Assembly: GCA_964501435.1 (NCBI GenBank) | Contig: CAZCTH010000001.1 | Span: 2,656 to 66,655, forward strand | Direction of reading: 5' to 3' | Source of the DNA: an uncultured Spirochaetales bacterium | GTDB taxonomy: Bacteria; Myxococcota_A; UBA9160; UBA6930 | Length of the DNA stretch: 64,000 nucleotides | In this document: positions 12,645-41,365 of the stretch, in pieces | Layout of the letters: each line of letters begins with the position of its first letter | Numbering within the stretch: position 1 is the first letter of the stretch | Made by a program: the position numbers and the translations under genes | The notes under the pieces: generated by a model | Database searches by the model: none | Told to the model about the DNA's origin: nothing | The model's input: the letters and a program-made list of their open reading frames with translations, nothing else

Positions 12645-12649
12645 GTCGA

Positions 12650-15852: not shown

Positions 15853-15866
15853 TCCGAGCGATCGCG

Positions 15867-17024
15867 ATGACCACGATCCTCACCGACCTCGTGACGCAGT
15901 TCCAAGCCGCCACCTCCGGTTGGTTCCAGGCGTTGTTCCCGATCGCGCGGAACCTGTTCTTCACCCTGGCCGCGATCGAGCTCGTCTGGGCGGCGTCGTG
16001 GTGGGTCGTTGAGCGCGACGATCCAGCACAGATCCTGGTGCAGCTCCTCAAGCGAGTGATGGCGATCGGGTTCTTCCTCGCGGTGCTGACGTTTGCCGAC
16101 ACGTGGATCCCGGCTGTGATCGATGGTTTCTCGACCGCCGGCCAACAGGCATCCGGACTGCCCGAACTGAACCCGAGCACGGTGATCGATCAGGGAATCG
16201 CGATCGCGACGAGCCTTATCTCGAGCATCTCCGTTGCCGGATGGTTCACGTCGCCGATGGGCGGCCTGGTCGCCGCGTTCAGCGCGCTCGCCAGCTTCCT
16301 CGCATTCGTCGTGATCGCCGCGCAGCTCGCACTCGCGCTGATCGAGATGTACGTCGTCATCGGCGGTGGCGTGCTGCTGCTCGGCTTCGCGGGCTCACGC
16401 TGGACGATGCCGTTTGCCGAGCGGTACCTGAGCTACGCGGTCGCGGTCGGGATCAAGCTCTTCGTGCTCTACCTAATCGTGGGTGTCGGCACTGCGCTCG
16501 CGGCGTCCTGGAGCACGCTGATCGCCAACGCGGGCGCATCGTTCGCGGATCTCTTCGCGGTCGTCGGCGCCTCGCTCGTCTACATGATCGTGGCCTGGCA
16601 GATCCCCAGCTTCGCCTCGGCGCTGATCGCCGGCTCGGTGAACCTCACGCTCGGCACCGCCGCGTACACCGCGGCGTCGATGGGTGCGATCGCGCTCGGC
16701 GCGAAGGGGCTCGCCGTGCGCGCTGCCGCGGCCACCGCGGGCGCCACGACTGCGATGCTGGAAGCAGGCCGCTATGCGCGGGACGCGCGCGCTGTCGGCG
16801 CCGGGGGCGGGACGGGAGGCGCGATCGCCGGCGCGGGCGCACTCGCTCGAGAAACGCTTGCAACGCATGCGCGCCGCGCGATCGGCATGCGCGCGTCATC
16901 CACGGCGACCGCGATCGAAGAGGCTCGCGTGGCGCGCTTCGGCCCCGCGCTCATTGCGCAGCGCGCGGCGCGGCAAGAGAAGGGCGCACCGCGGCCGGCT
17001 GGCAATGAGGAGAATCGCTCGTGA
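15867..17024 (+). CDS. trbL: TrbL/VirB6 inner-membrane channel protein
   Basis: Start moved to the ATG at 15867 (MTTILTDLVTQFQAA...). Polytopic with an Ala/Gly-rich tail. The upstream 342 codons of the track ORF overlap trbE/trbJ in another frame and are Arg-rich noise. Confidence 0.85.
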   Translation: MTTILTDLVTQFQAATSGWFQALFPIARNLFFTLAAIELVWAASWWVVERDDPAQILVQLLKRVMAIGFFLAVLTFADTWIPAVIDGFSTAGQQASGLPELNPSTVIDQGIAIATSLISSISVAGWFTSPMGGLVAAFSALASFLAFVVIAAQLALALIEMYVVIGGGVLLLGFAGSRWTMPFAERYLSYAVAVGIKLFVLYLIVGVGTALAASWSTLIANAGASFADLFAVVGASLVYMIVAWQIPSFASALIAGSVNLTLGTAAYTAASMGAIALGAKGLAVRAAAATAGATTAMLEAGRYARDARAVGAGGGTGGAIAGAGALARETLATHARRAIGMRASSTATAIEEARVARFGPALIAQRAARQEKGAPRPAGNEENRS

Positions 17025-17677
17025 CAGCGCGCGCCCCGGAGAACCCGTACCTCGCCGCGCGGCTCGAGTGGAACGAGCGCTACCACGGCTTCCTGCGAGC
17101 GAAGCGCAACTGGCAGATCGTTGCGCTTTCGCTCGTCGCCGTGAACGCAGGGCTCGTCGGCGCGATGACGTGGCTCGCGACGCAGAGCCGCGTCGTACCC
17201 TACGTGGTCGAGGTCGATCGCCTCGGGCAGACGCTCGCCATCGGTCCCGCTGAACGCTCGCGTGCGGCCGATGCGGCGCTCATTCGATACCAGCTCATCG
17301 AGTTCATTCGGCGCTCGCGCTCCGTGATCTCGGACGGCGCCGCTGAGAAGCAGCTTCTCGAGTCGGCGTACACGCAGGCCGGCGGTGCGGCCGTGCGCTT
17401 CCTGAACGAGCACTTCCAGGAGCAAAGCCCGTTCGTCGTGATGCGCGAGCGAACGGTTGCCGTGCAGGTGACCAGCGTGCTGAGGCTTCCGGCGAGCGAC
17501 TCGTGGCAGATCCAGTGGATCGAGACGCATCGCGGGCTCGATGGCGCCGTGCTTGCGGCGGAGCGCTGGCAGGCGCTTCTGCGCGCCGAGGTGCGCGCGC
17601 CGGAGTCGCCCGACGAGCTGCTTCGTAATCCGCTCGGCCTCTACGTCACAGACATCCAGTGGACCCAACAGTTGTGA
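17021..17677 (+). CDS. trbF: TrbF/VirB8-family protein
   Basis: 218 aa with a single N-terminal TM helix and an NTF2-like periplasmic domain. GTGA overlap with trbL. Confidence 0.85.
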   Translation: MTARAPENPYLAARLEWNERYHGFLRAKRNWQIVALSLVAVNAGLVGAMTWLATQSRVVPYVVEVDRLGQTLAIGPAERSRAADAALIRYQLIEFIRRSRSVISDGAAEKQLLESAYTQAGGAAVRFLNEHFQEQSPFVVMRERTVAVQVTSVLRLPASDSWQIQWIETHRGLDGAVLAAERWQALLRAEVRAPESPDELLRNPLGLYVTDIQWTQQL

Positions 17678-17685
17678 GGAGACCC

Positions 17686-18630
17686 ATGCACCGACCGAAC
17701 GGCCTCGCGGCCGCCCTAGTCATAGAGGTGACAACCGCGCTTGCGGGATGCGTCGCGGCGCCGCCACGGGGGCCCGAAACACTGTCGCCAGCGACTCTCG
17801 CGGCCGCAGATGAACTCGCGCCGGCGGCGGACGCCTCTCCACCAGCAAGCACATCTGCATTCCTCGATCCGGCCGACCCGGAGCTCACCGAGGCCGTTCG
17901 CCGGTTCCAAGAGACCGGCAAGGCGCCCGTCATCCGAAGCCCCGGCTTCGTGCGGTTCCCATTCGGGGAGACGCAGCCAGTCCTCTACTGCAAGCCGCTT
18001 CGCGTGTGCGACGTGCAGCTCGAGCTGGGCGAGATCGTGATCGACGTGGCGCTCGGAGACTCGGATCGCTGGATGGCCTCGAAGCTCGAAAGCGGTCCCC
18101 CGGGCGCGCGCGTCGCGCACGTCCTCTTGAAGCCGACCGAGTTCGATGCCGCGACAAATCTCGTGATCACTACGGATCGCCGCGTGTACCACCTCGGCCT
18201 CGTCAGCACAGCGGGTGCGCAATCCGGCTACTTCCGCAGCGTCCGCTTCTACTACCCCAGCGAGACCATCCAGCGTTGGGCGTCATCGACTGGCGCCGCC
18301 ACGCGCGAGCGCGAACTCGCCGTGGCGTCGCTTCCGTCCGTGAGCCCCGAGGCGCTCCACTTCGGCTACCGCATCGCGGGCGAGCGCGTGCCCTGGCGTC
18401 CGATACAAGCCTTCGACGACGGCACGCGCGTTTTTCTCTTGATGCCTGACGCGATGCGGGCGAACGAGGCGCCCGCGCTCTTCGTGCAGTCCGAGGAAGA
18501 GGAGAATGCGCTCGTGAACTACCGCGTGCGCGGTCGCTACTACGTCGTGGATCGCCTGTTCGCGAAGGCGGTGCTCGCGCTCGGCGTCGGCCGCAATCAG
18601 CAGCGCGTGACGATCACGCGGATTCCGTAA
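17686..18630 (+). CDS. trbG: TrbG/VirB9-family protein
   Basis: ATG at 17686 is preceded by GAGGAG. Lipobox-like LAGC. The C-terminal beta-rich VirB9-like region includes NYRVRGRYYVVDRLF. Confidence 0.85.
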   Translation: MHRPNGLAAALVIEVTTALAGCVAAPPRGPETLSPATLAAADELAPAADASPPASTSAFLDPADPELTEAVRRFQETGKAPVIRSPGFVRFPFGETQPVLYCKPLRVCDVQLELGEIVIDVALGDSDRWMASKLESGPPGARVAHVLLKPTEFDAATNLVITTDRRVYHLGLVSTAGAQSGYFRSVRFYYPSETIQRWASSTGAATRERELAVASLPSVSPEALHFGYRIAGERVPWRPIQAFDDGTRVFLLMPDAMRANEAPALFVQSEEEENALVNYRVRGRYYVVDRLFAKAVLALGVGRNQQRVTITRIP

Positions 18631-18644
18631 CAAGCGAGGCCATC

Positions 18645-19916
18645 GTGTCTGATCCCAACGACGATGTTCGAAGACCGCCAGCCGATCCGATCGACCTCAA
18701 TTCCGAGCCGCGCGTGACGCGCCTGAATCGCAGAGCAATCGGCGTACTTGCCGCGGCGCTCTGCGCGGCCCTCCTCGCCGCAGTATTCACGCTGTCGCAG
18801 CGAAGCCAGCAAGCGGAGCAACGCACGAAGGAGAGCAGCCGCCCGAGCGCGACGCCGGATCGATTCTGGGAGGATGCACCCGACGGCACACCGGGGCTGC
18901 TCGCGCCGCCCGAACCGGTGCCGGAGCTCGTCGAGCGCGAGACGCCTTTCTTCGAGGCCGGCGATTCAGGGTTCCAGAACGCCAGCGAGGCGATGAGTCC
19001 GGAGGAGCAGATCCTCGAGCGCGCGCGTCGCTCGCCGATCGTCGTGTACGAAGGGAAGGAAGCAGAGGCGACAGTCGCCGGGGGATGGGCCGCGTCACGG
19101 CTGGCGGGCGAGCCGGGCTCGCCGCCGAGAGACGGGATCGCCGAGACGTCGTTGGGCGCGATCGCCAACCTCGGCGCCCCCGAAGATCCTGTCGTCGCCC
19201 AGAACCTTCAGCACGAGAAGCGCGACTTTCTCGACGACGCTGGCCAATCGCAAGAAGAGACGATCGCTCATCGAGTCCGCACCCCGTCGTCGCCCTACGC
19301 CGTGCTCGCGGGAGCAGTCATCCCCGCGGTCCTCGTAACCGAAGCGCGCTCCGATCTGCCGGGGCAGGTGATCGCTCAGGTGCGCGAGTCCGTCTTCGAC
19401 ACGCCGACCGGCGCGCACCTCCTGATTCCACAGGGCACGCGGGCAATCGGAGAGTACGACAGCGTCGTTGCGTTCGGGCAGGAGCGCGTACTCGTCGCGT
19501 GGCAGCGCTTGCTCTTCCCCGACGGATCGAGCCTCACCTTGGGAGCGATGCCAGGCACCGACGCTGCTGGCGCCGCGGGGCTACACGATCGCGTCGACCG
19601 ACATTTGCTTCGGACGTTCGGCAGCGCGGCGCTCCTCAGTGCGATCAGCGCCGGCGCGCAGCTCTCTCAAGGAACGTTCGGTAGTGGCGCGGGCAGTAAT
19701 GCGCCGACCGACGCGCGCGAGATCCTGGCCGCCGCGCTCGGCCAGAACCTCGCCGAGCTCGGCACCGAGATGACGCGACGCAACCTAAGCGTTCAGCCTG
19801 CCCTCGAGATCCGAGCCGGGTACCGCTTCAACATTGCGGTTGTGAAGGACCTCGTGTTGCCTGGGCCGTACGCGGACGATCTCGCGCTCACCGCGCCATC
19901 AGGAGGACCACGATGA
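18645..19916 (+). CDS. trbI: TrbI/VirB10-family protein
   Basis: 423 aa with an N-terminal TM helix, a Pro-rich linker and the conserved C-terminal VirB10 domain (ATLVTEARSDLPGQVIAQV...LEIRAGYRFNIAV). Confidence 0.9.
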   Translation: MSDPNDDVRRPPADPIDLNSEPRVTRLNRRAIGVLAAALCAALLAAVFTLSQRSQQAEQRTKESSRPSATPDRFWEDAPDGTPGLLAPPEPVPELVERETPFFEAGDSGFQNASEAMSPEEQILERARRSPIVVYEGKEAEATVAGGWAASRLAGEPGSPPRDGIAETSLGAIANLGAPEDPVVAQNLQHEKRDFLDDAGQSQEETIAHRVRTPSSPYAVLAGAVIPAVLVTEARSDLPGQVIAQVRESVFDTPTGAHLLIPQGTRAIGEYDSVVAFGQERVLVAWQRLLFPDGSSLTLGAMPGTDAAGAAGLHDRVDRHLLRTFGSAALLSAISAGAQLSQGTFGSGAGSNAPTDAREILAAALGQNLAELGTEMTRRNLSVQPALEIRAGYRFNIAVVKDLVLPGPYADDLALTAPSGGPR

Positions 19917-20146
19917 AGCTCCACCGCCGCAAACCCGAGGAGCCGCCTGTCGAGATTCGCATCACCGTTCCTGCTGAGACGGTCGCCGAGTTGAAGGCGT
20001 ACGGGCAGTACTACGAAGCGACCTACTCGGACGCGATTGCGCTTCCGGTGCTGATCGTCGAGATCGTCCAGCAATACCTAACCCGCGAGCGGGGCTTTCG
20101 CAGCTGGGTCCGCACGGTCGGGGCAAGCCAGCGCGCGGTCGAGTGA
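19913..20146 (+). CDS. DUF2274-family small protein (typical last gene of Trb-type ICE transfer operons)
   Basis: 77 aa with an ATGA overlap with trbI. The sequence KLHRRKPEEPPVEIRITVPAETVAELKAYGQYY fits my recollection of DUF2274. Confidence 0.65.
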   Translation: MKLHRRKPEEPPVEIRITVPAETVAELKAYGQYYEATYSDAIALPVLIVEIVQQYLTRERGFRSWVRTVGASQRAVE

Positions 20147-20226: not shown

Positions 20227-20237
20227 ATAATCAACGC

Positions 20238-20280
20238 GACCCCGGGGACTTACGGTCCTCGGGGTCGTCGTGTGTTTGGG
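20238..20280 (+). terminator. strong hairpin followed by a T-containing tail (terminator-like)
   Basis: GACCCCG (20238-20244) pairs with CGGGGTC (20260-20266), with an inner GGAC/GTCC helix, followed by GTCGTGTGTTTGGG. It lies 11 nt after the tRNA-like CCA. Confidence 0.4.
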
Positions 20281-20601: not shown

Positions 20602-21735
20602 ATGACCTACGAACCGTCGCTCGACCTCCGCCACCCAGGCGCCGAGCTCGACTGGTTGCTTCTGCTCATCACGCAGAAGCTCCAGCTCTCGCCCACGCAG
20701 CAGCAAACCGCGGCCGATCGGTATCAGGCTGTCGGGCGCTACCTGCAGTCGAGGGCACCGATCCTTCGGATGGACCTATACGCGCAGGGATCGATGGCGC
20801 TCGGCACCACGGTCAAGCCGAAGGGCGGCGGCGAGTACGACCTCGACATCGTGCTCGAGATCCAGCGATTTCCCTCCGAGAGCCCGTTGGACTTGCACCA
20901 GTGGCTGGTCGACGCGCTGCGCGCGAGCGGGACGTACCGCGACCTCGTCGAGCCCAAGAAGCGCTGCGTGCGGTTGAACTACGCCGGCGACTTCTACATG
21001 GACGTGCTGCCGGCTCGTCCCGACCCGAATCCTGCGAAGTCCCGGCTCTACCGCGAGACCTGCATCCTCGTGCCGGACACAAAGTTGGAGGCCTGGACCG
21101 GAAGCAACCCGCGCGGCTTCGTGCGCTGGTTCGAGGGTCAATGCAGCGAGGACGCGCTCCGCTTGCGCGCTGCGCAGCAGCCACTGCCTGAAGCCGAGCC
21201 CGCGCACAGGAAGGCGGTCCTGCAGCAGCTCGTGCAGCTGGTGAAGCGCCATCGGGTGATGTGGTTCGGGGACGACAACGACGACGCGCCGCGCTCGATC
21301 GTGCTCACCACTCTCGCCGCGCACTTCTACCACGGCGAGCCCGTCCTGTTCGAAGCGCTCCGCGGCGTCGCCGCACGGATTCTCGCCGCGCTCCCGCCGG
21401 AGCCTCCGCAGGTGCGGAACCCGACCAACTTCGACGAGATTTTCTCGGAGCAGTGGATCGCAAAGCCCGCGACCTACGACGCATTCGTCCGCTGGATGCG
21501 GCAGTTCCATGCGCGCATCGCGAATCTTCCGCGCCTGCTCGGGCCCGCGCTCGACGACGAGATGCGAAGCCTGTTCGGCGAGGTCGCACGCGACGCGCGC
21601 GCTGCGCTGACCGAGCGGGTGGCACAAGCGCGGGCGGCGCAGCAGCTGCGGGCCACGCGGAGCGGACTCACGACGGCCGCGGGCGCTGGCGCGCTGGTCC
21701 GACCCAACACCTTTTTCGGGGGCGACCACGAGTAG
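20602..21735 (+). CDS. CD-NTase / SMODS-family cyclic-oligonucleotide synthase (CBASS cyclase)
   Basis: Pol-beta NTase triad QGS(63-64)MALGTTVKPKGGGEYD(80)LD(82)IVLEI plus third acid FYMD(134)VLPA. Also the N-terminal helix LSPTQQQTAADRYQAVGRYL, SNPRGFVRWF and PRSIVLTTLAAHFY. Start could be ATG 20602 or ATG 20575. The 153 in-frame codons upstream are Arg-rich non-coding sequence. Confidence 0.8.
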   Translation: MTYEPSLDLRHPGAELDWLLLLITQKLQLSPTQQQTAADRYQAVGRYLQSRAPILRMDLYAQGSMALGTTVKPKGGGEYDLDIVLEIQRFPSESPLDLHQWLVDALRASGTYRDLVEPKKRCVRLNYAGDFYMDVLPARPDPNPAKSRLYRETCILVPDTKLEAWTGSNPRGFVRWFEGQCSEDALRLRAAQQPLPEAEPAHRKAVLQQLVQLVKRHRVMWFGDDNDDAPRSIVLTTLAAHFYHGEPVLFEALRGVAARILAALPPEPPQVRNPTNFDEIFSEQWIAKPATYDAFVRWMRQFHARIANLPRLLGPALDDEMRSLFGEVARDARAALTERVAQARAAQQLRATRSGLTTAAGAGALVRPNTFFGGDHE

Positions 21736-21796
21736 GCGACCTCTAACGGCTGCGGTCCAGTACGCGGGCCTCGAAGCCATCGGCTTCAAGGGCTCG

Positions 21797-22150
21797 GTGC
21801 GGCGCAACAGGCTCGTGGTGCGCGGGCCGGTGCAGCCGAAGGCGCTCAGCGAGACATACGGAGTCCGCATCGAGTACACGGAAGGGGATTCGCCCGACGT
21901 CTGGGTGGAGGACCCGCCGCTGCGGCCTCGCGAACCTGGCGGCGCGATCCCACACGTCTACCCCGGCCTACGCCTCTGCCTGCATCTGCCCGGCGCGGGC
22001 GAGTGGACGCCGGCCGATGCCATCTCGAAGACGACGGTCCCGTGGGCGGCGATTTGGCTGCTGTTCTATGAGGACTGGCTCACAACAGGCGAGTGGCGTG
22101 GCGGTGGAGTCCATCCGGACCCTGGCGACACGAAGCTGGAGGGCAAATAG
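21797..22150 (+). CDS. stand-alone E2 (UBC)-like protein, CBASS ancillary
   Basis: 117 aa with a beta-rich N-half followed by IPH(53)VYPGLRLC(61)LH and EWTPADAISKTTVPWAAIWLLFYEDW. This resembles the E2 HPN..C flap and W-x-P helix. GTG is the only available start. Confidence 0.55.
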   Translation: MRRNRLVVRGPVQPKALSETYGVRIEYTEGDSPDVWVEDPPLRPREPGGAIPHVYPGLRLCLHLPGAGEWTPADAISKTTVPWAAIWLLFYEDWLTTGEWRGGGVHPDPGDTKLEGK

Positions 22151-23151
22151 TGCGCCGCGTCCTCGCGATCGACGGCGGCGGCATCAAGGGCGTATTCGCG
22201 GCGGCCTTCCTCGCTCGGATCGAGGACCACATCGAGGGCAGCGTCGGCGACTACTTCGACTTGATCTGCGGCACCTCGACCGGCGGAATCCTCGCCCTCG
22301 GCCTGGCGTCGGGACTCTCGGCGCAAGACATCCTCGGCTTTTACCAGAAGCACGCCCAGGACATCTTCGGCCCCGCGCCATCGCATTGGCGTGCGATCCG
22401 GCGGCTGTGGCGACCCAAGTTTGACTCGGCGCCGCTCCATCGAGCGCTGCGCGAGCACTTCGGCGATCGCCGACTACGCGACTGCAACCGCCGCCTCGTC
22501 GTCCCAAGCCAGGTGTTGGAAACCGGCGACGTCCACATCTACAAGACTCCTCATCATCCGCGCCTCGTCGACGATGTCGACAGGACGTTGGTCGACGTCG
22601 CCATGGCTACGGCGGCAGCGCCGACCTACTTCGCCGCGCATCGTCCCGCCGGCTGTGCACTCCTGGTCGACGGCGGAACATGGTCAAACAACCCGGCAGG
22701 TGTCGCGGCGACAGAGGCCGTCGGGGTGCTTGGATGGGATCGGAAAGAGACGCGGCTCTTGAGCGTCGGGTGCACCGAAGAACCGTGGGACCCGACGCGA
22801 GTCCGGAACACGACGTTTGAAGGTGCTGCTTGGCTCCAGCACGCCCACACGCTGATGATGAAGGGACAGTCGTTCGGGGCGTTGGGTACGGCCAAGAGTT
22901 TGTTGGGCGCCGAGAACGTGCACAGAATCTCTGCTGTCGTTGCGCCCAATCGGTTCACGCTCGACGACGCGAGCACGGTGGACGATCTCGTCGACCTCGG
23001 CCGGGTTGAAGCCCGCACTGCGATTTCACAGGTGCGCGAGAGGTTCTTCGACACGCCGGCCGAACCCTTGCTATCTCTGCCTTCCCCACCCCGATCAACT
23101 CCGCCGGGCGCAACCGAGATGGAAGGCGCCAGGTGGTCGGGGACGTCATGA
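22150..23151 (+). CDS. capV: patatin-like phospholipase effector (CapV-like)
   Basis: RVLAIDGGGIKG oxyanion motif, GTSTG nucleophile elbow and LLVDGGTWSNNP catalytic Asp. GTG at 22150 overlaps the E2 stop (TAGTG). The alternative ATG at 22093 would add 19 atypical residues. Confidence 0.88.
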   Translation: MRRVLAIDGGGIKGVFAAAFLARIEDHIEGSVGDYFDLICGTSTGGILALGLASGLSAQDILGFYQKHAQDIFGPAPSHWRAIRRLWRPKFDSAPLHRALREHFGDRRLRDCNRRLVVPSQVLETGDVHIYKTPHHPRLVDDVDRTLVDVAMATAAAPTYFAAHRPAGCALLVDGGTWSNNPAGVAATEAVGVLGWDRKETRLLSVGCTEEPWDPTRVRNTTFEGAAWLQHAHTLMMKGQSFGALGTAKSLLGAENVHRISAVVAPNRFTLDDASTVDDLVDLGRVEARTAISQVRERFFDTPAEPLLSLPSPPRSTPPGATEMEGARWSGTS

Positions 23152-25640
23152 CGCACTCGCTCGTAGAGCCGGTTGATTTCTTTCGCATTGACGCCAGCAG
23201 CAAGCTCGTACCTGTCCGGCGCGCCGAACTCGGCCAATTCCTGACGACCGCACCCGTCGCGCGCCTCATGGCCGGGATGTTCGAGCGTCGCCCGCGCGAG
23301 GTCAGGTTGCTCGATGCTGGGGCCGGCGTGGGCAGCCTCACAGCCGCCTTCGTGGAAGCCGCGATCAGTTGGGACCCGAAGCCCGAGCGAATCGTCGCAA
23401 CCGCCTACGAGGTTGATCCGGCCCTCGTGCCCTACCTCAAGGACTCCCTGCGACTCTGCGGGGACGCCTGTGCGGCTTCGGGCATCGCCTTCGAGAGCAC
23501 CGTCGAGGGCGAGGACTTCGTGGAGGCGGCCGTCGCGATGCTGGACGGCGGGCTCTTCGCGCGCCCAACAACTCGCTTTAACGCCGCGATCCTGAACCCG
23601 CCGTACCGAAAGATTCACTCCGCATCCGAGGCGCGCAGGCTGGTTCGCGCCGTCGGGGTCGAGACCTCGAACCTCTATACGGCGTTTCTCTCGCTCGTCG
23701 TCAAGCTGCTGGAACCGGGCGGCGAGCTCGTCGCGATCACGCCGCGCAGCTTCTGCAACGGGCCGTACTTCAGGCCCTTCCGTGAACTCTTCCTCGCGAA
23801 CATGGCGATCCACCGCGTGCACGTCTTCGACGCGCGGGACCGAGCCTTCGCGGACGACGCGGTCCTGCAGGAGAATGTCATCCTGCAAGCCCTACGGGGT
23901 GAACCGTCGCCTAGCCGAGTGGTCATCACGGCGAGCTCCGCGCCCGACGAGGACATGACCATCCGGCGCGTGTTGCCGGGCGAGTTAGTGCGCCCGGGCG
24001 ATCCCGAGCAGTTCATCCGAGTTGTTACTGACGACCTCGGTGCGCGGATCGCCGAACGAATGGAGAGCCTGCCGGCGACCCTCTCCGACTTGGACGTCGA
24101 GGTCTCGACCGGCCGCGTCGTCGACTTCCGCGCGAGCGAGCATCTGCGGGCGGAGCCGAGCCGCGACACCGCGCCGCTTATCTATCCCGGCCACTTTTCG
24201 AGTGGCTTCGTCGAGTGGCCGAAGCTCGGCGGTAAGAAGCCGAACGCCCTCGCGGCCGTTCCCGAGACGCTCTCGCTCCTGATGCCGCCGGGCGTCTACG
24301 TCCTGGCGAAGCGCTTCTCGTCCAAGGAGGAGCGCCGACGCGTGGTCGCCGCGGTCTACGACTCGGCGCGGATCGACGCGGGGGACGTCGGGTTCGAGAA
24401 TCACCTGAACGTCTACCACCGACGAGGAGCGGGCCTTCCGGAGGCGCTCGCCAAGGGGCTCGCGCTCTTCCTGAACTCGTCGCTCGTCGATCTCTACTTC
24501 CGCCAGTTCAGCGGGCACACACAGGTGAACGCGACCGACCTAAGAAGTTTGCGCTACCCGAGCAGCGAGGCGCTTGAACTTCTGGGCGCTTCGGTCGGCG
24601 AGGCCATGCCGGGGCAGGACGAGGTCGACCGGCGATTGCGAGAGGGGGTGTTCGGAGTGGCGACTGATCCGGTGAGCGCGAAACGGAAGCAGGACGAGGC
24701 GCTCTCGATCTTGAAGGCGTTGGGGTTTCCAAAGGCTCAGCTGAACGAGCGCTCGGCGCTCACCCTCCTCGCGCTGCTTGACCTGAAGCCCGAGTCGGAG
24801 TGGCTCGCTGCACGCGATCCGCTGATGGGTATCCGCCCGCTCATGGACTACTTCAAAGAGCACTACGGCAAGGTGTACGCGGAGAATTCCCGCGAGAGCG
24901 TCAGGCGCTTCACGATTCACCAGTTCCTCGAAGCCGGCTTGATCGTGCGGAACCCGGACGACCCAGAGCGCCCGACCAACAGCGGGCTCTACGTTTATCA
25001 AGTCACGCAGCCGGCGCTGGACCTCGTGCGCACGTTTGGACTGCCTGCCTGGGGCGCGAACCTCGCCACCTACCTTGCTAAGCGCCCCGGGCTCGCGAAG
25101 AAGTACGCGAGCGAGCGCGAGCAGCGGCGGATTCCGGTGACGCTGCCGACGGGCCAGACACTCTCGCTCTCGCCCGGCGGGCAGAACGAGCTCGTCAAGA
25201 AGATCCTCGAGGAATTCTGCCCGCACTTCACGCCGGGCGGTCACGTGCTCTACGTCGGCGACACGGGCGACAAGTGGGCGATCTCGGATGCCGCGGGCCT
25301 CGCGGCGCTCGGGGTAGAGGTAGACCTGCACGGGAAGATGCCGGACGTTGTCGTCCGCCACGTCGAGAAGAACTGGCTTGTGCTCATCGAGGCGGTCACC
25401 AGCCATGGGCCCGTGGACGGCAAGCGCCACGGCGAGCTCCGGACGGTCTTCTCGGGCGCGAAGGTGGGGATCGTCTACGTCACGGCGTTCCTCGACCGAA
25501 AGGCGCTCGCCAAGTACGTCGCGCAAATCTCCTGGGAGACCGAGGTGTGGGCCGCCGACTCGCCGACCCATCTCATCCACTTCGATGGCGAGCGGTTCCT
25601 CGGTCCGTACCCACCGGACGGAGGCTCGCACGCCGGCTGA
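23148..25640 (+). CDS. single-chain restriction-modification enzyme: N6-adenine methyltransferase fused to a BsuBI/PstI-family endonuclease
   Basis: N-half: FLTTAPVARLM, LLDAGAGVGSL (SAM motif I) and ILNPPYRKI (motif IV). C-half: ALSILKALGFPKAQLNERSALTLLALLDL (the BsuBI/PstI N-domain) and GKMPDVVV..LVLIEAVTSHGP (PD..ExK-like core). ATG at 23148 overlaps the capV stop (ATGA). Confidence 0.75.
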   Translation: MTHSLVEPVDFFRIDASSKLVPVRRAELGQFLTTAPVARLMAGMFERRPREVRLLDAGAGVGSLTAAFVEAAISWDPKPERIVATAYEVDPALVPYLKDSLRLCGDACAASGIAFESTVEGEDFVEAAVAMLDGGLFARPTTRFNAAILNPPYRKIHSASEARRLVRAVGVETSNLYTAFLSLVVKLLEPGGELVAITPRSFCNGPYFRPFRELFLANMAIHRVHVFDARDRAFADDAVLQENVILQALRGEPSPSRVVITASSAPDEDMTIRRVLPGELVRPGDPEQFIRVVTDDLGARIAERMESLPATLSDLDVEVSTGRVVDFRASEHLRAEPSRDTAPLIYPGHFSSGFVEWPKLGGKKPNALAAVPETLSLLMPPGVYVLAKRFSSKEERRRVVAAVYDSARIDAGDVGFENHLNVYHRRGAGLPEALAKGLALFLNSSLVDLYFRQFSGHTQVNATDLRSLRYPSSEALELLGASVGEAMPGQDEVDRRLREGVFGVATDPVSAKRKQDEALSILKALGFPKAQLNERSALTLLALLDLKPESEWLAARDPLMGIRPLMDYFKEHYGKVYAENSRESVRRFTIHQFLEAGLIVRNPDDPERPTNSGLYVYQVTQPALDLVRTFGLPAWGANLATYLAKRPGLAKKYASEREQRRIPVTLPTGQTLSLSPGGQNELVKKILEEFCPHFTPGGHVLYVGDTGDKWAISDAAGLAALGVEVDLHGKMPDVVVRHVEKNWLVLIEAVTSHGPVDGKRHGELRTVFSGAKVGIVYVTAFLDRKALAKYVAQISWETEVWAADSPTHLIHFDGERFLGPYPPDGGSHAG

Positions 25641-26324: not shown

Positions 26325-26804
26325 ATGGCAACAACAACTCGCGACGGCATCCACTTCATCCGCGTGGTCGCAGTCCGCTACACCGGGCCGCGGCGGCGAT
26401 CGCCCGAGACGGTCCGCGCTCCGCGCGAGGCGACGGCGGTCATGCGCCGCATCATCCTCGACGACGCGCGCGAGCACTTCATCGCGCTCTACCTCGACGG
26501 CCGGCACCACGCGATCGCGCTCCAGGTCGTCTCGATCGGCACCGCGACTGCGTCGCTCGTCCACCCGCGCGAGGTCTTCCAGTCCGCAATCCTAATCGGC
26601 GCGTGCGGCGTGATCGTCGGCCACAATCACCCGTCGGGCGATCCGAGCCCGAGCCCCGAGGATCGCCAGATCACGCGTCGAATCGCCGACGCGGGCAAGC
26701 TCCTCGGCATCCCGCTGCTCGACAGCGTCGTGTGGGGCCACGGCGTTTCGTACGTCTCGCTGCGAGAGATCGCGCCGGACCTCTTCGGCTCGAGCGCAGA
26801 CTGA
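26325..26804 (+). CDS. radC: RadC-like JAB/MPN-domain protein
   Basis: JAMM motif GHNHPSGDPSPSPED, a RadC-type C-terminal half, and SD-like GGAGGG 7 nt upstream of the ATG. Confidence 0.88.
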   Translation: MATTTRDGIHFIRVVAVRYTGPRRRSPETVRAPREATAVMRRIILDDAREHFIALYLDGRHHAIALQVVSIGTATASLVHPREVFQSAILIGACGVIVGHNHPSGDPSPSPEDRQITRRIADAGKLLGIPLLDSVVWGHGVSYVSLREIAPDLFGSSAD

Positions 26805-27116
26805 CGGTGCGCGGCACTCGCGTCGCGCACGTCGGACGCGAGCGGTCGCTGAGCCAGCCCCCCATCTCACCCCCTCGTCGACTCCTCGCTGACCGCCAAG
26901 TCGACGCACACGCAGCGCGTCCCGCCAGAGCCGCGATCGCGTGTTTCGCCATCCGTGTTCGTCCGGTTTTCCCCCTCTGGTGCTGCACCTCTTAGGGCCT
27001 GGCCCAGCCGTCGCCTATGCGCGCAAGGCACCGCTGCGCTCGCCTGCGGCGGCCTTGCGCGCGGCTCCGGCTGGTCCGCATCGGCCCGAGGTGCAACGCA
27101 CCAAGGAGGAAACCCG

Positions 27117-27527
27117 ATGATGACTCTCACTTACTTCAACGAAACACTCGACCGCCTGCTGGGCGGGGCGCGCTGCGTGCGCATTACCGTCGACGGCTAC
27201 ATGACGCTCGTCGTCGAGGAGGTCGGGCCGTCGGCGGATGGCCGCCGACTCATCGCGCTCGCGCACACGGCCGTGCAGAACGGCGACGTAATGCACGACC
27301 CCGAGATCGTGTTCGAGCTCCATGCGCTCGGCGCAGAGCCGATCTCCTTCCGCAACGACTACGTCGGCGCGTACAACGAGGTGTACGCATACGATCACGC
27401 CGGTCGCCGCACCGGCGTGTATCCGAAGCGACGCGCCGAGCTTCAGTCCTTCGCGCGCATGTGGTTTCGCAACCTCCGCGCGCAGGGCTTCCTGGGAGAC
27501 GCCGCGCGACGCGAGGTTCTCGCATAG
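27117..27527 (+). CDS. hypothetical protein (conserved-looking, soluble, 136 aa)
   Basis: Strong SD AAGGAGGA at 27104-27111 followed by tandem ATGs at 27117 and 27120. Composition is coding-like. I cannot name a family with confidence. Confidence 0.6.
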   Translation: MMTLTYFNETLDRLLGGARCVRITVDGYMTLVVEEVGPSADGRRLIALAHTAVQNGDVMHDPEIVFELHALGAEPISFRNDYVGAYNEVYAYDHAGRRTGVYPKRRAELQSFARMWFRNLRAQGFLGDAARREVLA

Positions 27528-27705
27528 CCCGCGCGGACCTCGGGCCCGTCGCGCCTCGCGCGCGGCGGGCTCGCGGCTCGGTCGCCTACGTCCCGCGCTC
27601 AGCAGATGTCGTCGCAGAGCGGTCTCCTCGGAGGAGCGTTCGGCGAGCGCCTCGACCGACCGTCAAGTGCGCGGCTATTCTGACTTCGCGCGTGAGGGGC
27701 ATCGC

Positions 27706-28098
27706 ATGATCGTCGCGGAATTCATCCTTGTCGCGTTCGTCGCGGGCATCCTCGCGAAGAGCGGCTGGATCGCGATCGCGACGTTCGCTCTGCTCTACAG
27801 CGTCTACCGCTACAGCCGACTCTCTGTCCTGCTCGCCGCGTTGCTGATCGCTTATTGGGCGGCAGTCGGCTTTCAGGTTGGCCGCGGCGTGAGCGGCCCG
27901 GTCGGCGCCTTGGCTGGCGCGGTAGTGGCGGGTCTGGTGTCCGCGCGCGTGCACCGCGATGCCTTCACTCGTCTACGTGGGCGGGGAGAGATCAGGCAGA
28001 CTCCTGCGCCGCAACCGGTAGCGTTCAGTGCATCGCCGGTGCCGAAGACTCACCGCGAAGGCGACGTGATCGACGTGGAGTACCGCGTCGTTTCGTAA
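27706..28098 (+). CDS. small membrane protein (3 predicted TM helices), unknown function
   Basis: ATG at 27706. MIVAEFILVAFVAGILAKSGWIAIATFALLY.. followed by two more hydrophobic helices and a charged tail. The upstream part of the track ORF is Arg-rich noise. Confidence 0.55.
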   Translation: MIVAEFILVAFVAGILAKSGWIAIATFALLYSVYRYSRLSVLLAALLIAYWAAVGFQVGRGVSGPVGALAGAVVAGLVSARVHRDAFTRLRGRGEIRQTPAPQPVAFSASPVPKTHREGDVIDVEYRVVS

Positions 28099-28170
28099 CG
28101 CGAGCGCGCCATTGTCTCGCTCAGCCCGTTGTCGATTCGATGCATGATCGGGCTCCGCTTGGGAGTCGGA

Positions 28171-28345
28171 TGGCAGCGCGAGTGGACTTGGCTTTGGCAG
28201 CGCGTATGCGTGATGAGCTGCGCGGGAGAGGGAGCGGGTCGGGGAGAGATCGGAGGAGAGAGGAGTTGTTATAGAATCTTGTGCAAGATAAAGAGTGCTG
28301 GACGGAATCTCGCAACCGCTCGATTCTCAAAGGAAATCTGTTGGA
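28171..28345. promoter_or_regulatory. repeat-rich, locally AT-rich intergenic block
   Basis: The role could be an oriT, a promoter remnant or a rearrangement junction. TGGCAGCGCG occurs at 28171-28180 and again at 28195-28204. A purine-rich tract runs 28224-28265 (37 of 42 nt). An AT-rich stretch follows with GAATCT at 28274 and 28305, GATTCT at 28322 and GAAATCT at 28333. Confidence 0.35.
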
Positions 28346-28406
28346 CGACGCGCGAAGAGCGCACATCCGGCACAGGTTCAGCCTCGAGGGCTACTAGAGG
28401 CCTTGG

Positions 28407-28925
28407 CTACTTACGCGGCTGGCGTTCGCCTGAGCCACCATTCACGGCCGGAGCTGCTGCCGGAGCGAAGGCGTCCGAAGTGCGTGCGGCGTGCTCATCC
28501 ACCGCCGTCAGCCACGCGCGATGCCGCGCCGAAGCACTCTGTGAACGCGTTGCTCGCAGCTCGGGCGGAACCTCTGGCATGTGCAGCATCAGCCCGAAGT
28601 AGAGCCGATCGAGCATCGCCTCGGCTCGCGCAATCCGTAGGTCGATCGAAGCAAGAGTGTCCGTGTGGTCGTCGATCCGGGCGGCGATCCGCGCCTCGAG
28701 TTCGAGCAATGGCAGGGGCACGCGCCGCGGCGCATCGGTGTCGGCCGGGAGGAACCGCACCGCCTCCGCGGTCACGTCTCGCGCGGCGAAGGCCTCCGCG
28801 AGAGCAGTGCGAACGATTTCCGAGAGCCGCTCCCCGGTCGCAGCCGCCTCGCGCAGCATCCGCTGGTAGAGCGCCTCGGCGATGTGCGTGCGCACTTCGT
28901 ACTGCTTCCGTCGTTCATTGCTCAT
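28407..28925 (-). CDS. ribbon-helix-helix (CopG-like) protein following traG
   Basis: Start moved to the ATG at 28925 (MSNERRKQYEVRTHIAEALYQRMLREAAATGERLSEIVRTAL is an RHH-type N-terminus). It overlaps the traG stop by 11 nt. Confidence 0.6.
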   Translation of the reverse strand: MSNERRKQYEVRTHIAEALYQRMLREAAATGERLSEIVRTALAEAFAARDVTAEAVRFLPADTDAPRRVPLPLLELEARIAARIDDHTDTLASIDLRIARAEAMLDRLYFGLMLHMPEVPPELRATRSQSASARHRAWLTAVDEHAARTSDAFAPAAAPAVNGGSGERQPRK

Positions 28926-30996
28926 GCTGCGCTCCCGAGCGCGCGCTCTCACCGAACATCTTCTCTTGCGCGAGGAGTTGCTCCGGCGCAACTACCGTCG
29001 AGGCGGCGCCCGCTGTCCAAGGGCACGCGCGGGAACGCAGCCGATCCGACTCCCGCGGCGCAGCGATCGCCGCTCGTCGCGCGAACTCTGCGTTCTCGAA
29101 GTACCGCAGCTTGCTTGCGAGAATCGGCCGAGCGCCGGCGACGAAGACCAGTGCAGCGTCGGCCGGCAGGCGCATGGCTTCGTCAGGCGTCAGCAGAGCC
29201 CGGTGCGACTCCTGCTCGGATGCGAGCACGTGCATGAGCACTGGGTTGAGGCGATTTCCCGTGTACGTGCGGCTCTCCTTGTGCACGGTCATCGCACCCG
29301 CCATGTCTGACAAGAGTCGCGCTGTCTCGACGCGATTCGGAGCGAAAGCGACGCGGACATGGCAGTTCGACACGATGCTCTCGTCGCGGCCGTACGCGGC
29401 GTAGAGCTGCGAAAGGTCCTGCACGATGAGGAACGCCTGAATCCCGTAGCCGGACAGGTACGAGAGCTGACTCTGGAAGAAATCGAGCCGCCCGAGCGTC
29501 GGGAACTCATCCATCAGCAGAAGAAGCTGGCGGCGGTCCCGCCGACCGTTGCTGTCCGGCGCGTGCAGTTCTTCCGTCAAACGCCGCCCGACCTGCTGGA
29601 TCAGAAGCCGGGTCAGCGACCGTGTGCGCGCTAGATCTGACGGCGGAACGGTCAGGTAGAGGCTCACGGTGCGATCGGGGCGAACCAGGTCGGCGATGCG
29701 AAAATCGCAGGCGGATGTGTTCGCGGCCACGATGTCGTCGTGGTAGAGGCTAAGGAACTTCGTGGCCGAGGAGAGCACGCTCGACCGCTCGTTCTCGGAC
29801 TTGTTCTTCAGCGATCGCGCAGCACGCGCGACCGCGGGGTGCGTCGGCGTGGCTTCCCCGGTTGTTGGGTCGTGCCATCCGCGCGTCAGGCCAGGATCGT
29901 GCGGCGCATTGAGCATCTCATCGAGCACGGTGCCGATCGTGCGGCTCGGGTCCGTGAGGAAGTCGAGGCAGCCGCGCAAGCTCTTGTCGGGTCGCACGTA
30001 GAGCACGTGCAGAATCGTGCCCGCGAGAACTTCCTGCGCAGTGAGATCCCAGTGGTCCTTCGTGCCCGCGCCATCCGGATCGACGAGCATGTCGGCGATC
30101 GTCTGAACGTCGCGCACTTCGAACGGCCCGCGCCGCACCTCGAGCAACGGGTTGTATCGCGCGGCGCTTCCGTCGGCGCAGGTGGGGTCGAAGCGCAGGC
30201 AAGTGCTGCCGAGCTCGCGCTGGCGAAACCCCGCGGTGAGCGACCAGTTCTCGCCCTTCACGTCGTTCACGAGCACGGAGTGCGGCCAGGTAAGAAGCGT
30301 CGGGATCACCCAGCCGACGCCTTTGCCCGAGCGCGAAGGCGCGAAGCCGAGGACGTGTTGAGGCCCGGCGTGGCGAAGTGGGAGCTCGCGCCGGCCGCGC
30401 TGCCAGACGCCGACGTAAATGCCTTGCCGACCCAACAGCCCCGCAGCTTCGACATCGAGATCGGACGCCCATCGTGCAGAGCCGTGCAGGTCGCTCTTGC
30501 CGCCGACCCGCCGCGCTCGCCGCACGGCGATCGCGATTCCAACGATGAAGACGAAGTGCGCCGGTACTCCAATCAGCCAGTGGCCGGTGCGAAAGATCGC
30601 GTCGGTAGCGGGTGTGCTCGCGAAGCGGAGCTCCCAGATGAAGAAGTCCCAGGGTGCGTAGATCGGGCCGAGCCACGCCGCTGCCGCGGCGATCGCCGCA
30701 ACCGTCGAGGGAGCGGCGAACCGACGTGCGGGCACATGAAACGTGGACAGGAATGCAACCGCTGCGAGTAGAACAGCGAAGGCAGCGAGCGCGACACGCG
30801 CATCGGGCGACGCCGTGAGCAGTGGCGCGCCGAGCGCGCGTTGGAAGCCGAATCGCCACGCGGTCCATTGCGTCGTCGCCCACAGAACGAGAACGATGGT
30901 TGCGGCTACCGAAATCAGCGAGGCGAAGAGAACGCCGGCCGCACTGTTGCCGTCGGTGCCGCCGGGCAGGCGATAGAGAGCGAGTCTTTTCTGCAC
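28915..30996 (-). CDS. traG: TraG/VirD4 type IV coupling protein
   Basis: 693 aa with N-terminal TM helices, a P-loop-like FAPSRSGKGVGWVIP and the conserved LLLLMDEFPTLG (Walker B region) typical of T4CPs. Confidence 0.9.
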   Translation of the reverse strand: MQKRLALYRLPGGTDGNSAAGVLFASLISVAATIVLVLWATTQWTAWRFGFQRALGAPLLTASPDARVALAAFAVLLAAVAFLSTFHVPARRFAAPSTVAAIAAAAAWLGPIYAPWDFFIWELRFASTPATDAIFRTGHWLIGVPAHFVFIVGIAIAVRRARRVGGKSDLHGSARWASDLDVEAAGLLGRQGIYVGVWQRGRRELPLRHAGPQHVLGFAPSRSGKGVGWVIPTLLTWPHSVLVNDVKGENWSLTAGFRQRELGSTCLRFDPTCADGSAARYNPLLEVRRGPFEVRDVQTIADMLVDPDGAGTKDHWDLTAQEVLAGTILHVLYVRPDKSLRGCLDFLTDPSRTIGTVLDEMLNAPHDPGLTRGWHDPTTGEATPTHPAVARAARSLKNKSENERSSVLSSATKFLSLYHDDIVAANTSACDFRIADLVRPDRTVSLYLTVPPSDLARTRSLTRLLIQQVGRRLTEELHAPDSNGRRDRRQLLLLMDEFPTLGRLDFFQSQLSYLSGYGIQAFLIVQDLSQLYAAYGRDESIVSNCHVRVAFAPNRVETARLLSDMAGAMTVHKESRTYTGNRLNPVLMHVLASEQESHRALLTPDEAMRLPADAALVFVAGARPILASKLRYFENAEFARRAAIAAPRESDRLRSRACPWTAGAASTVVAPEQLLAQEKMFGESARSGAQHEQ

Positions 30997-31078
30997 GAGT
31001 CGGACTCCGAGCGCGGAGTCCGGTCATCGCGGGGGAGATCGGTTGGTAGCACGCGACCCAGGGCAGGGCGCCTCCGAT

Positions 31079-35348: not shown

Positions 35349-35396
35349 GGCGAATTGCGCGGAGCCCGCACAAGCGGTCGCTCGAGAGGTCAGGCG

Positions 35397-36485: not shown

Positions 36486-36496
36486 AGGAGCCCGCG

Positions 36497-37585: not shown

Positions 37586-37594
37586 GAGGATGCG

Positions 37595-40313: not shown

Positions 40314-40341
40314 CCCATAACAAGCACTGGAGAACCAGGCG

Positions 40342-40707: not shown

Positions 40708-40714
40708 GCACGCC

Positions 40715-41191: not shown

Positions 41192-41365
41192 GACGCGCGC
41201 GGGTTTCCCGGTTCCGTGGTGGCGAAGTCAGCGGAGCGTCACGCCGGCGTCGTTGCGGATCGGAAACGTGGTAGCATGTTGAGAAACGACCCTGTGTTTC
41301 GGCGTGCAGTGAAACGCGTGCCGGGGCCGGATCAACCCGAACGACTCTCGTCGATGGAGTGCCTC

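What the first reader, a model, noticed from the sequence alone, without database searches (positions are those of the whole stretch)
23148..25640. BsuBI/PstI-family endonuclease fused behind an Eco57I-like N6-adenine methyltransferase
Seen: one 830-aa ORF. Residues ~1-500 carry the gamma-class MTase motifs (LLDAGAGVGSL, NPPY). Residues ~520-830 carry both BsuBI/PstI REase regions (ALSILKALGFPKAQLNERSALTLLALL..., then GKMPDVVV...LVLIEAVTSHGPVDGKR). Established: PstI/BsuBI systems are classically two separate genes, R and M. Inference: this is a Type IIC/IIG-style single-chain derivative of a PstI-like system. Its specificity and cleavage geometry may differ from the CTGCAG prototype.
Basis: partly seen in the sequence, partly recalled or inferred. 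Interest (0 to 1): 0.55.

Follow-up and report, generated by a model that had tools for sequence, protein, structure and literature searches.

The report
Fused PstI-type methylase-nuclease gene
This gene really does encode a DNA methylase and a PstI/BsuBI-type restriction nuclease joined in one protein, but the fusion is common in public databases and is already catalogued, so it is an ordinary single-gene restriction-modification system carried as cargo on a conjugative element.

Summary
Window 23148-25640 (+) is one uninterrupted 830-codon ORF. Residues 1-500 form a gamma-class N6-adenine methyltransferase with a TaqI-like recognition domain. Residues 514-821 form a complete BsuBI/PstI/SdaI-type restriction endonuclease.

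The protein is "Type IIC" by definition, since R and M sit in one chain. It is not built like Type IIG enzymes: it keeps two separate DNA-recognition modules and is a seamless end-to-end join of an M->R gene pair whose stop and start codons overlap in unfused relatives.

The architecture is not rare. All 119 closest database homologues are full-length fusions. 21 of the 150 best 50%-identity cluster representatives are fusions, from many phyla. PADLOC holds a full-length profile for it (E=2e-262). Fused and unfused forms interleave on a methylase tree, which suggests repeated fusion or fission.

The nuclease half is 58% identical, without gaps, to the Stx2a-prophage enzyme. The literature ties that enzyme type to CTGCAG, so CTGCAG methylation and in-site cleavage are the likeliest activities (inferred).

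Here the gene lies directly behind a CBASS operon (ATGA overlap), in the cargo region of a Trb-type conjugative element.

Verdict: a new member of a known kind, of low interest.

The parts
23148..25640 (+). Single 830-aa ORF: M-R fusion, a single-chain PstI/BsuBI-type restriction-modification enzyme
   Evidence: ORF list and translation. Full-length PADLOC profile PDLC03359 matches residues 3-821 to profile positions 10-839 of 840, E=2.3e-262.
23148..23897 (+). Gamma-class N6-adenine MTase catalytic domain (about residues 1-250). Motif I LLDAGAGVGSL at 23307-23339; motif IV NPPY at 23595-23606.
   Evidence: Pfam Eco57I 142-229. D56, G58, A59, G62 and N150-P-P-Y153 are invariant in 69 fused homologues. 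Foldseek hits to M.TaqI, M.BseCI and CamA.
23898..24647 (+). MTase target-recognition domain (about residues 251-500), TaqI-like
   Evidence: Stand-alone MTase profile PDLC03227 covers residues 6-498, E=3e-161. The Foldseek alignments to whole M.TaqI chains (TM 0.71-0.74 normalised to target) span catalytic domain plus TRD. 45% identity over residues 10-497 to the Stx2a-phage MTase. The domain boundary is approximate (inference).
24648..24686 (+). Fusion junction (about residues 501-513): the former M C-terminal tail joined to the R N-terminal head, with no inserted linker domain
   Evidence: Colinearity with the M tail and R head of two-gene relatives, whose stop and start codons overlap by 4-8 nt.
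24687..25097 (+). BsuBI/PstI REase N-terminal winged-helix (HTH) DNA-recognition domain (residues 514-650)
   Evidence: Pfam PF17728, 4e-48. SdaI 2ixs alignment over 516-821, E=3e-73.
25131..25592 (+). BsuBI/PstI REase catalytic PD-(D/E)XK-type domain (residues 662-815). HGKMPD at 728-733 and IEAVTSHGP at 747-755.
   Evidence: Pfam PF06616, 6e-60. H728, G729, K730, D733, E748, A749, V750 and T751 are invariant in 69 homologues. 58% gap-free identity to the Stx2a-phage REase.
20602..23151 (+). Context, not part of the enzyme: a CBASS operon directly upstream. Cyclase about 20602-21735, E2-like 21797-22150, patatin phospholipase 22150-23151. Its stop codon overlaps the RM start codon (ATGA at 23148-23151).
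   Evidence: NCBIfam CBASS_lipase 8.5e-73. PADLOC cyclase 1.5e-85 and E2 9.5e-40. Gene calls on L001. Sequence of the junction.

Best explanation
The gene encodes a self-contained, single-polypeptide Type II restriction-modification enzyme. It arose by in-frame fusion of a BsuBI-like, head-to-tail M->R gene pair. The N-terminal half is a monomeric, TaqI-like gamma-class N6-adenine methyltransferase with its own recognition domain, and it protects host DNA. The C-terminal half is a complete PstI/SdaI-type endonuclease with its own winged-helix recognition domain and a PD-(D/E)XK-type catalytic domain. It probably dimerises and cuts unmethylated sites within the recognition sequence. The most likely target is CTGCAG (N6-methylation of the adenine; cleavage CTGCA^G) or a close variant. 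Fusion fixes the M:R ratio at 1:1 and guarantees that the nuclease is never made without the methylase, which suits a gene travelling on a conjugative element. Here it is cargo of a Trb-type conjugative element. It sits directly behind a CBASS operon and is probably co-transcribed with it, so the two form a two-layer defence cassette. Shown: the ORF, the domain content, motif conservation, homology, how common the architecture is, and the context. Inferred: both activities, the specificity, dimeric in-site cleavage and co-transcription.
For: A single ORF with all three Pfam domains. A full-length PADLOC profile match, E=2e-262, plus separate matches to stand-alone M (E=3e-161) and R (E=1e-126) profiles. 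MTase motifs I and IV and the nuclease HGK-x2-D...EAVT residues are invariant across 69 fused homologues at 57-77% identity, which indicates selection on both halves. The R half is 58% identical with zero gaps, and the M half 45% identical, to the Stx2a-prophage M->R pair. PMC3893438 describes the Stx2a-prophage BsuBI/PstI system as methylating 98.8% of CTGCAG sites and as essentially identical to the biochemically tested EcoGIII system. SdaI (CCTGCAGG) matches at E=3e-73 with 41% identity. The AF2 model (pLDDT 83, pTM 0.74) hits SdaI for the C-terminal half and M.TaqI, M.BseCI and CamA for the N-terminal half. Two-gene relatives have overlapping stop and start codons, and the query junction is colinear with them. 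Fused homologues stand alone, with no separate MTase gene next to them, as expected for a complete one-gene system. An engineered R-M fusion of another Type IIP system, Eco29kI, kept both activities and still restricted phage (PMC3039593).
Against: No activity data exist for this protein, and I found none for any fused member in the searchable literature. The specificity is inferred from 45-58% identity only. The family also contains the 8-bp cutter SdaI, so a variant site is possible. CTGCAG is not depleted in the window (23 observed, 26 expected), which gives no support either way. Where SdaI has Lys in EAVK, the query has Thr (EAVT). This is the family consensus, including stand-alone enzymes, so it is not evidence of inactivation. 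I could not retrieve the SdaI paper, so the identity of the catalytic lysine is unverified.
Confidence: 0.8

Rival explanations
1. The ORF is two genes (M and R) that only appear fused because of a sequencing or assembly frameshift, or it is a recent pseudogene-like read-through.
For: Two-gene relatives differ from the fusion only by a 4-8 nt stop/start overlap, so a single indel error could mimic a fusion.
Against: The identical 830-aa protein is called on three contigs, two of them from two separate sequencing runs. All 119 nearest homologues (57-78% identity) are fused. Five genome-collection loci from different phyla have uninterrupted 839-894-codon frames.
Confidence: 0.02
2. It is a methyltransferase with a decayed or repurposed nuclease half. 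In effect it is an orphan MTase, with the PstI-like HTH module acting only as an extra DNA-binding or autoregulatory domain.
For: Some cluster representatives of about 686-732 aa carry the MTase plus only the N-terminal HTH part of the REase, so nuclease-less derivatives may exist. The SdaI Lys corresponds to Thr in the query.
Against: The full 154-position catalytic Pfam domain is matched end to end, E=6e-60. H728, G729, K730, D733 and E748-T751 are invariant in 69 homologues. The same EAVT/ESVT motif occurs in stand-alone REases, including the Stx-phage enzyme type reported as biochemically active.
Confidence: 0.08
3. It works like a classical Type IIG/IIS enzyme (Eco57I or MmeI style): one recognition event by the MTase TRD, AdoMet-stimulated cleavage at a distance, and possibly a new specificity.
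For: The only Pfam hit for the MTase half is the Eco57I family. BpuSI and PglX appear among weaker structural hits. Weak PADLOC REase_MTase_IIG hits, E=5e-4 to 8e-3.
Against: The domain order is reversed relative to Type IIG, where the nuclease is N-terminal and one specificity module is shared (PMC4081073). The nuclease half brings its own recognition domain and aligns gap-free to a Type IIP enzyme. The best MTase matches are stand-alone Type II MTases (PDLC03227, E=3e-161; M.TaqI fold).
Confidence: 0.05
4. The fusion protein is a functional component of the upstream CBASS system (an extra effector or a sensor) and not an independent RM system.
For: Its ATG overlaps the patatin stop codon (ATGA), it is on the same strand, and no terminator-like site is predicted between the genes. 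The same arrangement is seen on the Logan contig L001.
Against: The six other fused homologues inspected, including the closest ones at 78%, 72% and 66% identity, have no CBASS genes beside them and sit in unrelated neighbourhoods. The cyclase + E2 + patatin set is already a complete CBASS by the PADLOC and NCBIfam hits.
Confidence: 0.05

Closest known systems
BsuBI and EcoGIII-type two-gene CTGCAG systems (M->R, head-to-tail), as on Stx2a prophages and many plasmids
   Same: Both halves are homologous and colinear: M 45% and R 58% identity to phage GER2, and about 50% to the plasmid systems. The gene order M then R is the same. They share the gamma-MTase motifs and the HGKMPD...E(A/S)VTSHGP nuclease motif.
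   Different: In those systems M and R are separate proteins whose stop and start codons overlap by 4-8 nt. Here the two frames are joined into one 830-aa chain.
Fused 'Eco57I methylase domain + BsuBI/PstI endonuclease' proteins already in the databases (PADLOC profile PDLC03359; NCBI names such as 'BsuBI/PstI family type II restriction endonuclease', about 820-890 aa)
   Same: The architecture is identical over the full length: 57-78% identity to 119 proteins, and cluster representatives down to about 30% identity.
   Different: Nothing architectural differs. This copy is distinguished only by its location behind a CBASS operon on a conjugative element.
SdaI (PDB 2ixs), an 8-bp cutter related to PstI
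   Same: Same two-domain REase fold (wHTH plus catalytic domain). E=3e-73, 41% identity over residues 516-821. It is the top Foldseek hit.
   Different: SdaI is a stand-alone REase, recognises CCTGCAGG and has EAVK where the query has EAVT. The query is closer to the CTGCAG-type enzymes (58% against 41%).
Classical Type IIC/IIG enzymes (Eco57I, MmeI, BpuSI) and BtgZI
   Same: R and M activities lie in one polypeptide, with a gamma-class NPPY MTase. BtgZI also has the MTase in front of the nuclease (PMC4081073).
   Different: Type IIG enzymes have an N-terminal nuclease without its own recognition domain, one shared specificity module and cleavage at a distance. BtgZI has an alpha-class MTase. 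The query has two independent recognition modules and a Type IIP-type nuclease.
Engineered RM.Eco29kI fusion (PMC3039593)
   Same: It shows that joining an overlapping Type IIP gene pair into one frame gives a protein with both activities that still restricts phage. That paper predicted natural fusions of this kind for head-to-tail systems, and named BsuBI among them.
   Different: The order there is R-M, with a GIY-YIG nuclease and an m5C MTase, and the construct is artificial. Its restriction was 100-fold weaker than that of the wild-type system.

Membership tests
BsuBI/PstI restriction endonuclease family (Pfam PF17728 + PF06616; SdaI fold) | N-terminal HTH domain and C-terminal catalytic domain both present, above Pfam gathering scores | tested here: met
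   PF17728: 163 bits against a cut-off of 27, profile positions 3-139 of 140. PF06616: 202 bits against a cut-off of 27, positions 1-154 of 154.
BsuBI/PstI restriction endonuclease family (Pfam PF17728 + PF06616; SdaI fold) | Conserved catalytic-core residues (PD ... E-x-V-T/K block) | tested here: met
   H728, G729, K730, D733, E748, A749, V750 and T751 are invariant in 69 homologues. The same block is present in stand-alone P0202 and in the Stx-phage REase. I could not check which residues are catalytic in SdaI, because the paper is not held.
BsuBI/PstI restriction endonuclease family (Pfam PF17728 + PF06616; SdaI fold) | Structural similarity to SdaI | tested here: met
   Sequence match to 2ixs, E=3e-73. 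Foldseek E=5e-29, 41% identity; the global TM is low (0.47) because the relative orientation of the two domains differs.
BsuBI/PstI restriction endonuclease family (Pfam PF17728 + PF06616; SdaI fold) | Recognition of CTGCAG (or CCTGCAGG) and cleavage inside the site | not testable with these tools
   Inferred only, from 58% identity to the Stx2a-phage REase type linked to CTGCAG in PMC3893438.
Monomeric gamma-class N6-adenine DNA MTases (M.TaqI / M.PstI type) | Motif order: AdoMet motif I, then NPPY motif IV, then a C-terminal TRD | tested here: met
   Motif I at residues 54-64 and NPPY at 150-153, with the TRD region after about residue 250. Gamma-MTase organisation as described in PMC3874165.
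Monomeric gamma-class N6-adenine DNA MTases (M.TaqI / M.PstI type) | Fold similarity to M.TaqI, including the TRD | tested here: met
   Foldseek to M.TaqI: E about 2e-17, TM 0.71-0.74 normalised to the target. Also M.BseCI and CamA.
Type IIC (combined R and M in one polypeptide) | Endonuclease and methyltransferase domains in the same protein | tested here: met
   A single ORF holds both domain sets. The activities themselves were not assayed.
Type IIG (Eco57I / MmeI-like) | N-terminal nuclease; R and M harnessed to one shared specificity module | tested here: not met
   The nuclease is C-terminal and has its own wHTH recognition domain, and the MTase has its own TRD. Definition taken from PMC4081073.
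Type IIG (Eco57I / MmeI-like) | Cleavage stimulated by or dependent on AdoMet, at a distance from the site | not testable with these tools
   This needs biochemistry.

The most novel reading that the evidence does not exclude
Natural M-R fusions of Type IIP systems such as this one could form a mechanistically distinct class. In such a class the tethered methylase and nuclease would compete at the same palindromic site, giving altered kinetics, tolerance of hemimethylated DNA or a shifted specificity compared with PstI. In this element the fusion may also be deliberately co-expressed with CBASS as one operon, so that restriction and abortive infection are regulated together. My evidence does not exclude either idea: no fused member appears to have been characterised in the literature I could search, and the ATGA overlap with the patatin gene is real.
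Probability: 0.08. Interest if true: 0.45.

Novelty: new member of a known kind. Interest (0 to 1): 0.15.

Why it matters
It matters little beyond annotation. The gene should be labelled a single-chain (Type IIC) PstI/BsuBI-family RM enzyme that probably targets CTGCAG, not a novelty. There are two modest points of interest. First, the family is a natural, widespread and apparently recurrent example of the R/M gene-fusion route that had been demonstrated only with an engineered construct (RM.Eco29kI), yet no fused member seems to have been studied biochemically. Second, this copy forms a compact CBASS + RM defence cassette in the cargo slot of a conjugative element, and is a usable example of stacked defences that travel together.

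Tried and rejected
(1) Possible inactivation of the nuclease, because the query has EAVT where SdaI has EAVK. Rejected: Thr is invariant in the fused family and is also present in stand-alone enzymes.

(2) CTGCAG or palindrome avoidance in the window as a clue to specificity. There are 23 sites against 26.2 expected (order-4 Markov estimate), so there is no signal, and 64 kb is too short to say more.

(3) A functional link to CBASS. Rejected as a general property, because the six other fused homologues inspected lie in unrelated, CBASS-free neighbourhoods.

(4) Literature searches for a characterised PstI-type M-R fusion found none. They returned only the two-gene EcoGIII/BsuBI systems, the engineered Eco29kI fusion and general reviews. 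One search failed on syntax, and the SdaI structure paper is not held.

(5) Host identification by megablast of the Trb region against plasmids gave only two 42-bp matches in trbE. The host remains unknown, and no tRNA gene is present in the window.

(6) A fused-versus-unfused tree was made on the MTase domain only (NJ, no bootstrap). A parallel REase-domain tree was not possible, because only one stand-alone REase was among the 150 listed representatives.
Full report
OBSERVATION. The six-frame ORF list shows one uninterrupted frame on the + strand from 23133 (GTG) or 23148 (ATG) to the stop at 25640. Translation from the ATG gives 830 residues and a single terminal stop. Pfam places Eco57I (methylase) at 142-229, BsuBI_PstI_RE_N at 514-650 (4e-48) and BsuBI_PstI_RE at 662-815 (6e-60, profile covered 1-154 of 154). 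It is not an assembly artefact. The identical protein is called on three contigs, two of them from two separate sequencing runs. All 119 nearest homologues share the architecture.

ANATOMY. An AlphaFold2 model built on 69 fused homologues has mean pLDDT 83 and pTM 0.74. Against the PDB, the C-terminal half hits the restriction endonuclease SdaI (E=5e-29, 41% identity). The N-terminal half hits monomeric gamma-class adenine methyltransferases that carry their own recognition domain: M.BseCI, M.TaqI (TM 0.71-0.74 normalised to the target) and CamA. By sequence, SdaI (2ixs) matches residues 516-821 at E=3e-73 with 41% identity. The protein thus has four modules: MTase catalytic domain (about 1-250), MTase recognition domain (about 251-500), REase winged-helix recognition domain (514-650) and REase catalytic domain (662-815). 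In the 69-sequence alignment both catalytic centres are invariant: D56/G58/A59/G62 and N150-P-P-Y153 in the MTase, and H728-G-K730, D733 and E748-A-V-T751 in the nuclease. SdaI has Lys where the query has Thr751. That Thr is the family consensus and is also present in stand-alone enzymes, so I do not read it as inactivation.

ORIGIN OF THE FUSION. tblastn against plasmids and phages finds many two-gene systems, with an 'Eco57I...methylase' gene followed by a 'BsuBI/PstI family endonuclease' gene. They match the query as two colinear pieces at about 50% identity over 92-99% of its length. 88 plasmid records and 97 phage records cover at least 80% of the query. In phage GER2 and in Nitrosospira multiformis plasmid 2, the M and R genes overlap by 4 nt. 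In two metagenome-assembled genomes (L010, L014) they overlap by 8 nt. The query's junction (...EAMPGQDEVDRRLREGVFGVATDPVSAKRKQDEALSILKALG...) is colinear with the M tail and the R head of those relatives, and no extra linker is inserted. A one-step frameshift or stop loss is enough to make the fusion. This route was demonstrated experimentally for Eco29kI, and the same paper predicted it for head-to-tail systems including BsuBI (PMC3039593).

HOW COMMON IS IT? In the 5.8-billion-protein collection, all 8000 scored candidates passed E<=1e-5. The best 119 besides the query are all 796-922 aa, carry the same three Pfam domains and are 57-78% identical. Some already carry source names such as 'BsuBI/PstI family type II restriction endonuclease', 'Eco57I restriction-modification methylase domain-containing protein' and 'Type-2 restriction enzyme AplI'. 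In the exhaustive search of 50%-identity cluster representatives, 1517 clusters score E<=1e-30. Of the best 150, 21 are full-length fusions whose MTase halves are only 29-56% identical to the query. 99 are stand-alone MTases at 39-55% identity, and one is a stand-alone REase at about 63%. Five loci from the species-representative genome collection have single 839-894-codon frames: Terriglobia, Thalassospiraceae, Gemmatimonadota, Pirellulales and Caldilineaceae. Four others keep two genes. PADLOC-DB contains a full-length profile (PDLC03359, 840 positions) that the query matches end to end at E=2.3e-262. From my own knowledge, not tested here, these RM profiles derive from REBASE-based sets. 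A neighbour-joining tree of MTase domains needs at least 17 switches between fused and unfused states. This is a crude tree without support values. It agrees with the fact that the query's MTase half is closer to some stand-alone MTases (55%) than to most other fused clusters. Fusion or fission therefore looks recurrent.

WHAT IT MOST LIKELY DOES. The REase half is 58% identical, with zero gaps over 306 residues, to the REase of the Stx2a-prophage system. The MTase half is 45% identical to that system's MTase. PMC3893438 reports that the Stx2a-prophage BsuBI/PstI system accounts for methylation of 98.8% of CTGCAG sites in E. coli O145 RM13514. It also reports that its genes are essentially those of the EcoGIII system, which was shown biochemically to methylate and cut CTGCAG. 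Reviews describe M.PstI as a monomeric gamma-MTase that methylates both strands of its palindrome in turn (PMC3874165), and describe PstI and SbfI as sequence-related enzymes (PMC4081073). I therefore infer N6-methylation of the adenine in CTGCAG (or a close variant) by the N-terminal half, and cleavage within the same site by a dimer of the C-terminal half. Fused homologues elsewhere are solitary genes, with no separate methylase beside them and with unrelated neighbours, as expected for a complete one-gene RM system.

COMPARISON WITH KNOWN CLASSES. By definition the protein is Type IIC. It does not fit the usual Type IIC/IIG design, which has an N-terminal nuclease and a single specificity module serving both activities. 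The review names only BtgZI as an MTase-first exception, and that enzyme has an alpha-class MTase. Here each activity keeps its own recognition module, so I see no reason to expect cleavage at a distance. I found no paper that characterises a PstI-type M-R fusion, and REBASE could not be queried.

CONTEXT. The gene lies in the cargo region of a conjugative element. Upstream are the Trb/VirB genes: TrbE 12650-15073, then the genes up to TrbG (CagX) 17659-18630, TrbI 18645-19916 and DUF2274 19913-20146. A terminator-like hairpin follows at 20236-20268. Next comes a CBASS operon: cyclase about 20602-21735, E2-like protein 21797-22150 and patatin phospholipase 22150-23151. The patatin TGA overlaps the RM ATG (ATGA). 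Downstream lie RadC 26325-26804, DUF6908 26955-27527, the coupling protein TraG/VirD4 28915-30996 (-) and a relaxase 31079-32959 (-). G+C content is uniform across the region. The adjacency to CBASS is specific to this element and is best read as stacking of defence genes.

VERDICT. This is an ordinary member of a widespread, already catalogued family of single-chain PstI/BsuBI-type RM enzymes. Interest is low (0.15). The residual novelty is that no fused member seems to have been studied at the bench.

Noticed in passing
window 20602-23151 (+): A compact CBASS operon: a CD-NTase cyclase (SMODS; PADLOC cyclase 1.5e-85), a 117-aa E2-only protein (PADLOC E2 9.5e-40) and a patatin phospholipase effector (NCBIfam CBASS_lipase 8.5e-73). 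The longest cyclase ORF starts at 20143, but the gene call on L001 starts at about 20602.
   Followed up: partly
window 20236-20268 (+): A strong terminator-like hairpin (15 pairs, 10 of them G-C, followed by a T-rich tail) lies between the end of the trb operon (DUF2274 gene) and the CBASS cassette. It suggests that the defence cassette is its own transcription unit.
   Followed up: no
window 10943-20146 (+) and 26325-32959: Backbone of a conjugative element. It includes a VirB11-like ATPase, TrbE, TrbL, VirB8, CagX/TrbG, TrbI and DUF2274. After the defence cargo come RadC, DUF6908, TraG/VirD4 (28915-30996, -) and a MobA/VirD2-like relaxase with DUF3363 (31079-32959, -). No tRNA gene is present in the window, and no integrase was looked for.
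   Followed up: partly
proteins P0126, P0136, P0138, P0140 (cluster representatives): Several representatives of about 686-732 aa carry the full MTase plus only the N-terminal HTH domain of the PstI-type REase, and end a few residues later. They may be nuclease-less derivatives (MTase with an extra DNA-binding domain) or truncated or frameshifted ORFs. Their contigs could not be looked up with the tools allowed.
   Followed up: no
L008 7914-10165, L011 1404-3832, L012 7884-10419: In three species-representative genomes (Capsulimonadaceae, Verrucomicrobiota, Bryobacteraceae) the homologous region changes frame within the REase part. These look like decayed or frameshifted copies of the fused or paired system.
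   Followed up: no
window 23864-23871: The RM gene itself contains one CCTGCAGG site, which includes CTGCAG. Over the whole window CTGCAG occurs 23 times against about 26 expected, so the predicted target is not avoided.
   Followed up: yes
L030 5701-6327 (-); L021 3191-6449 (-): Some fused homologues sit next to other defence-like genes. P0003 is followed by a TIR-domain gene. P0005 is preceded by genes for AAA_14/DUF4143, a small nucleotidyltransferase and a HATPase_c_3 protein. This is consistent with placement in defence islands.
   Followed up: no
window 35355-42526 (+): Beyond the relaxase the window switches to metabolic genes: luciferase-like monooxygenase, zinc alcohol dehydrogenase, two amidohydrolase_2 proteins and a thiolase-like protein. 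Several long ORFs at 33-50 kb have no Pfam hit and overlap ORFs on the opposite strand, as is usual for spurious frames in 68% G+C DNA.
   Followed up: no
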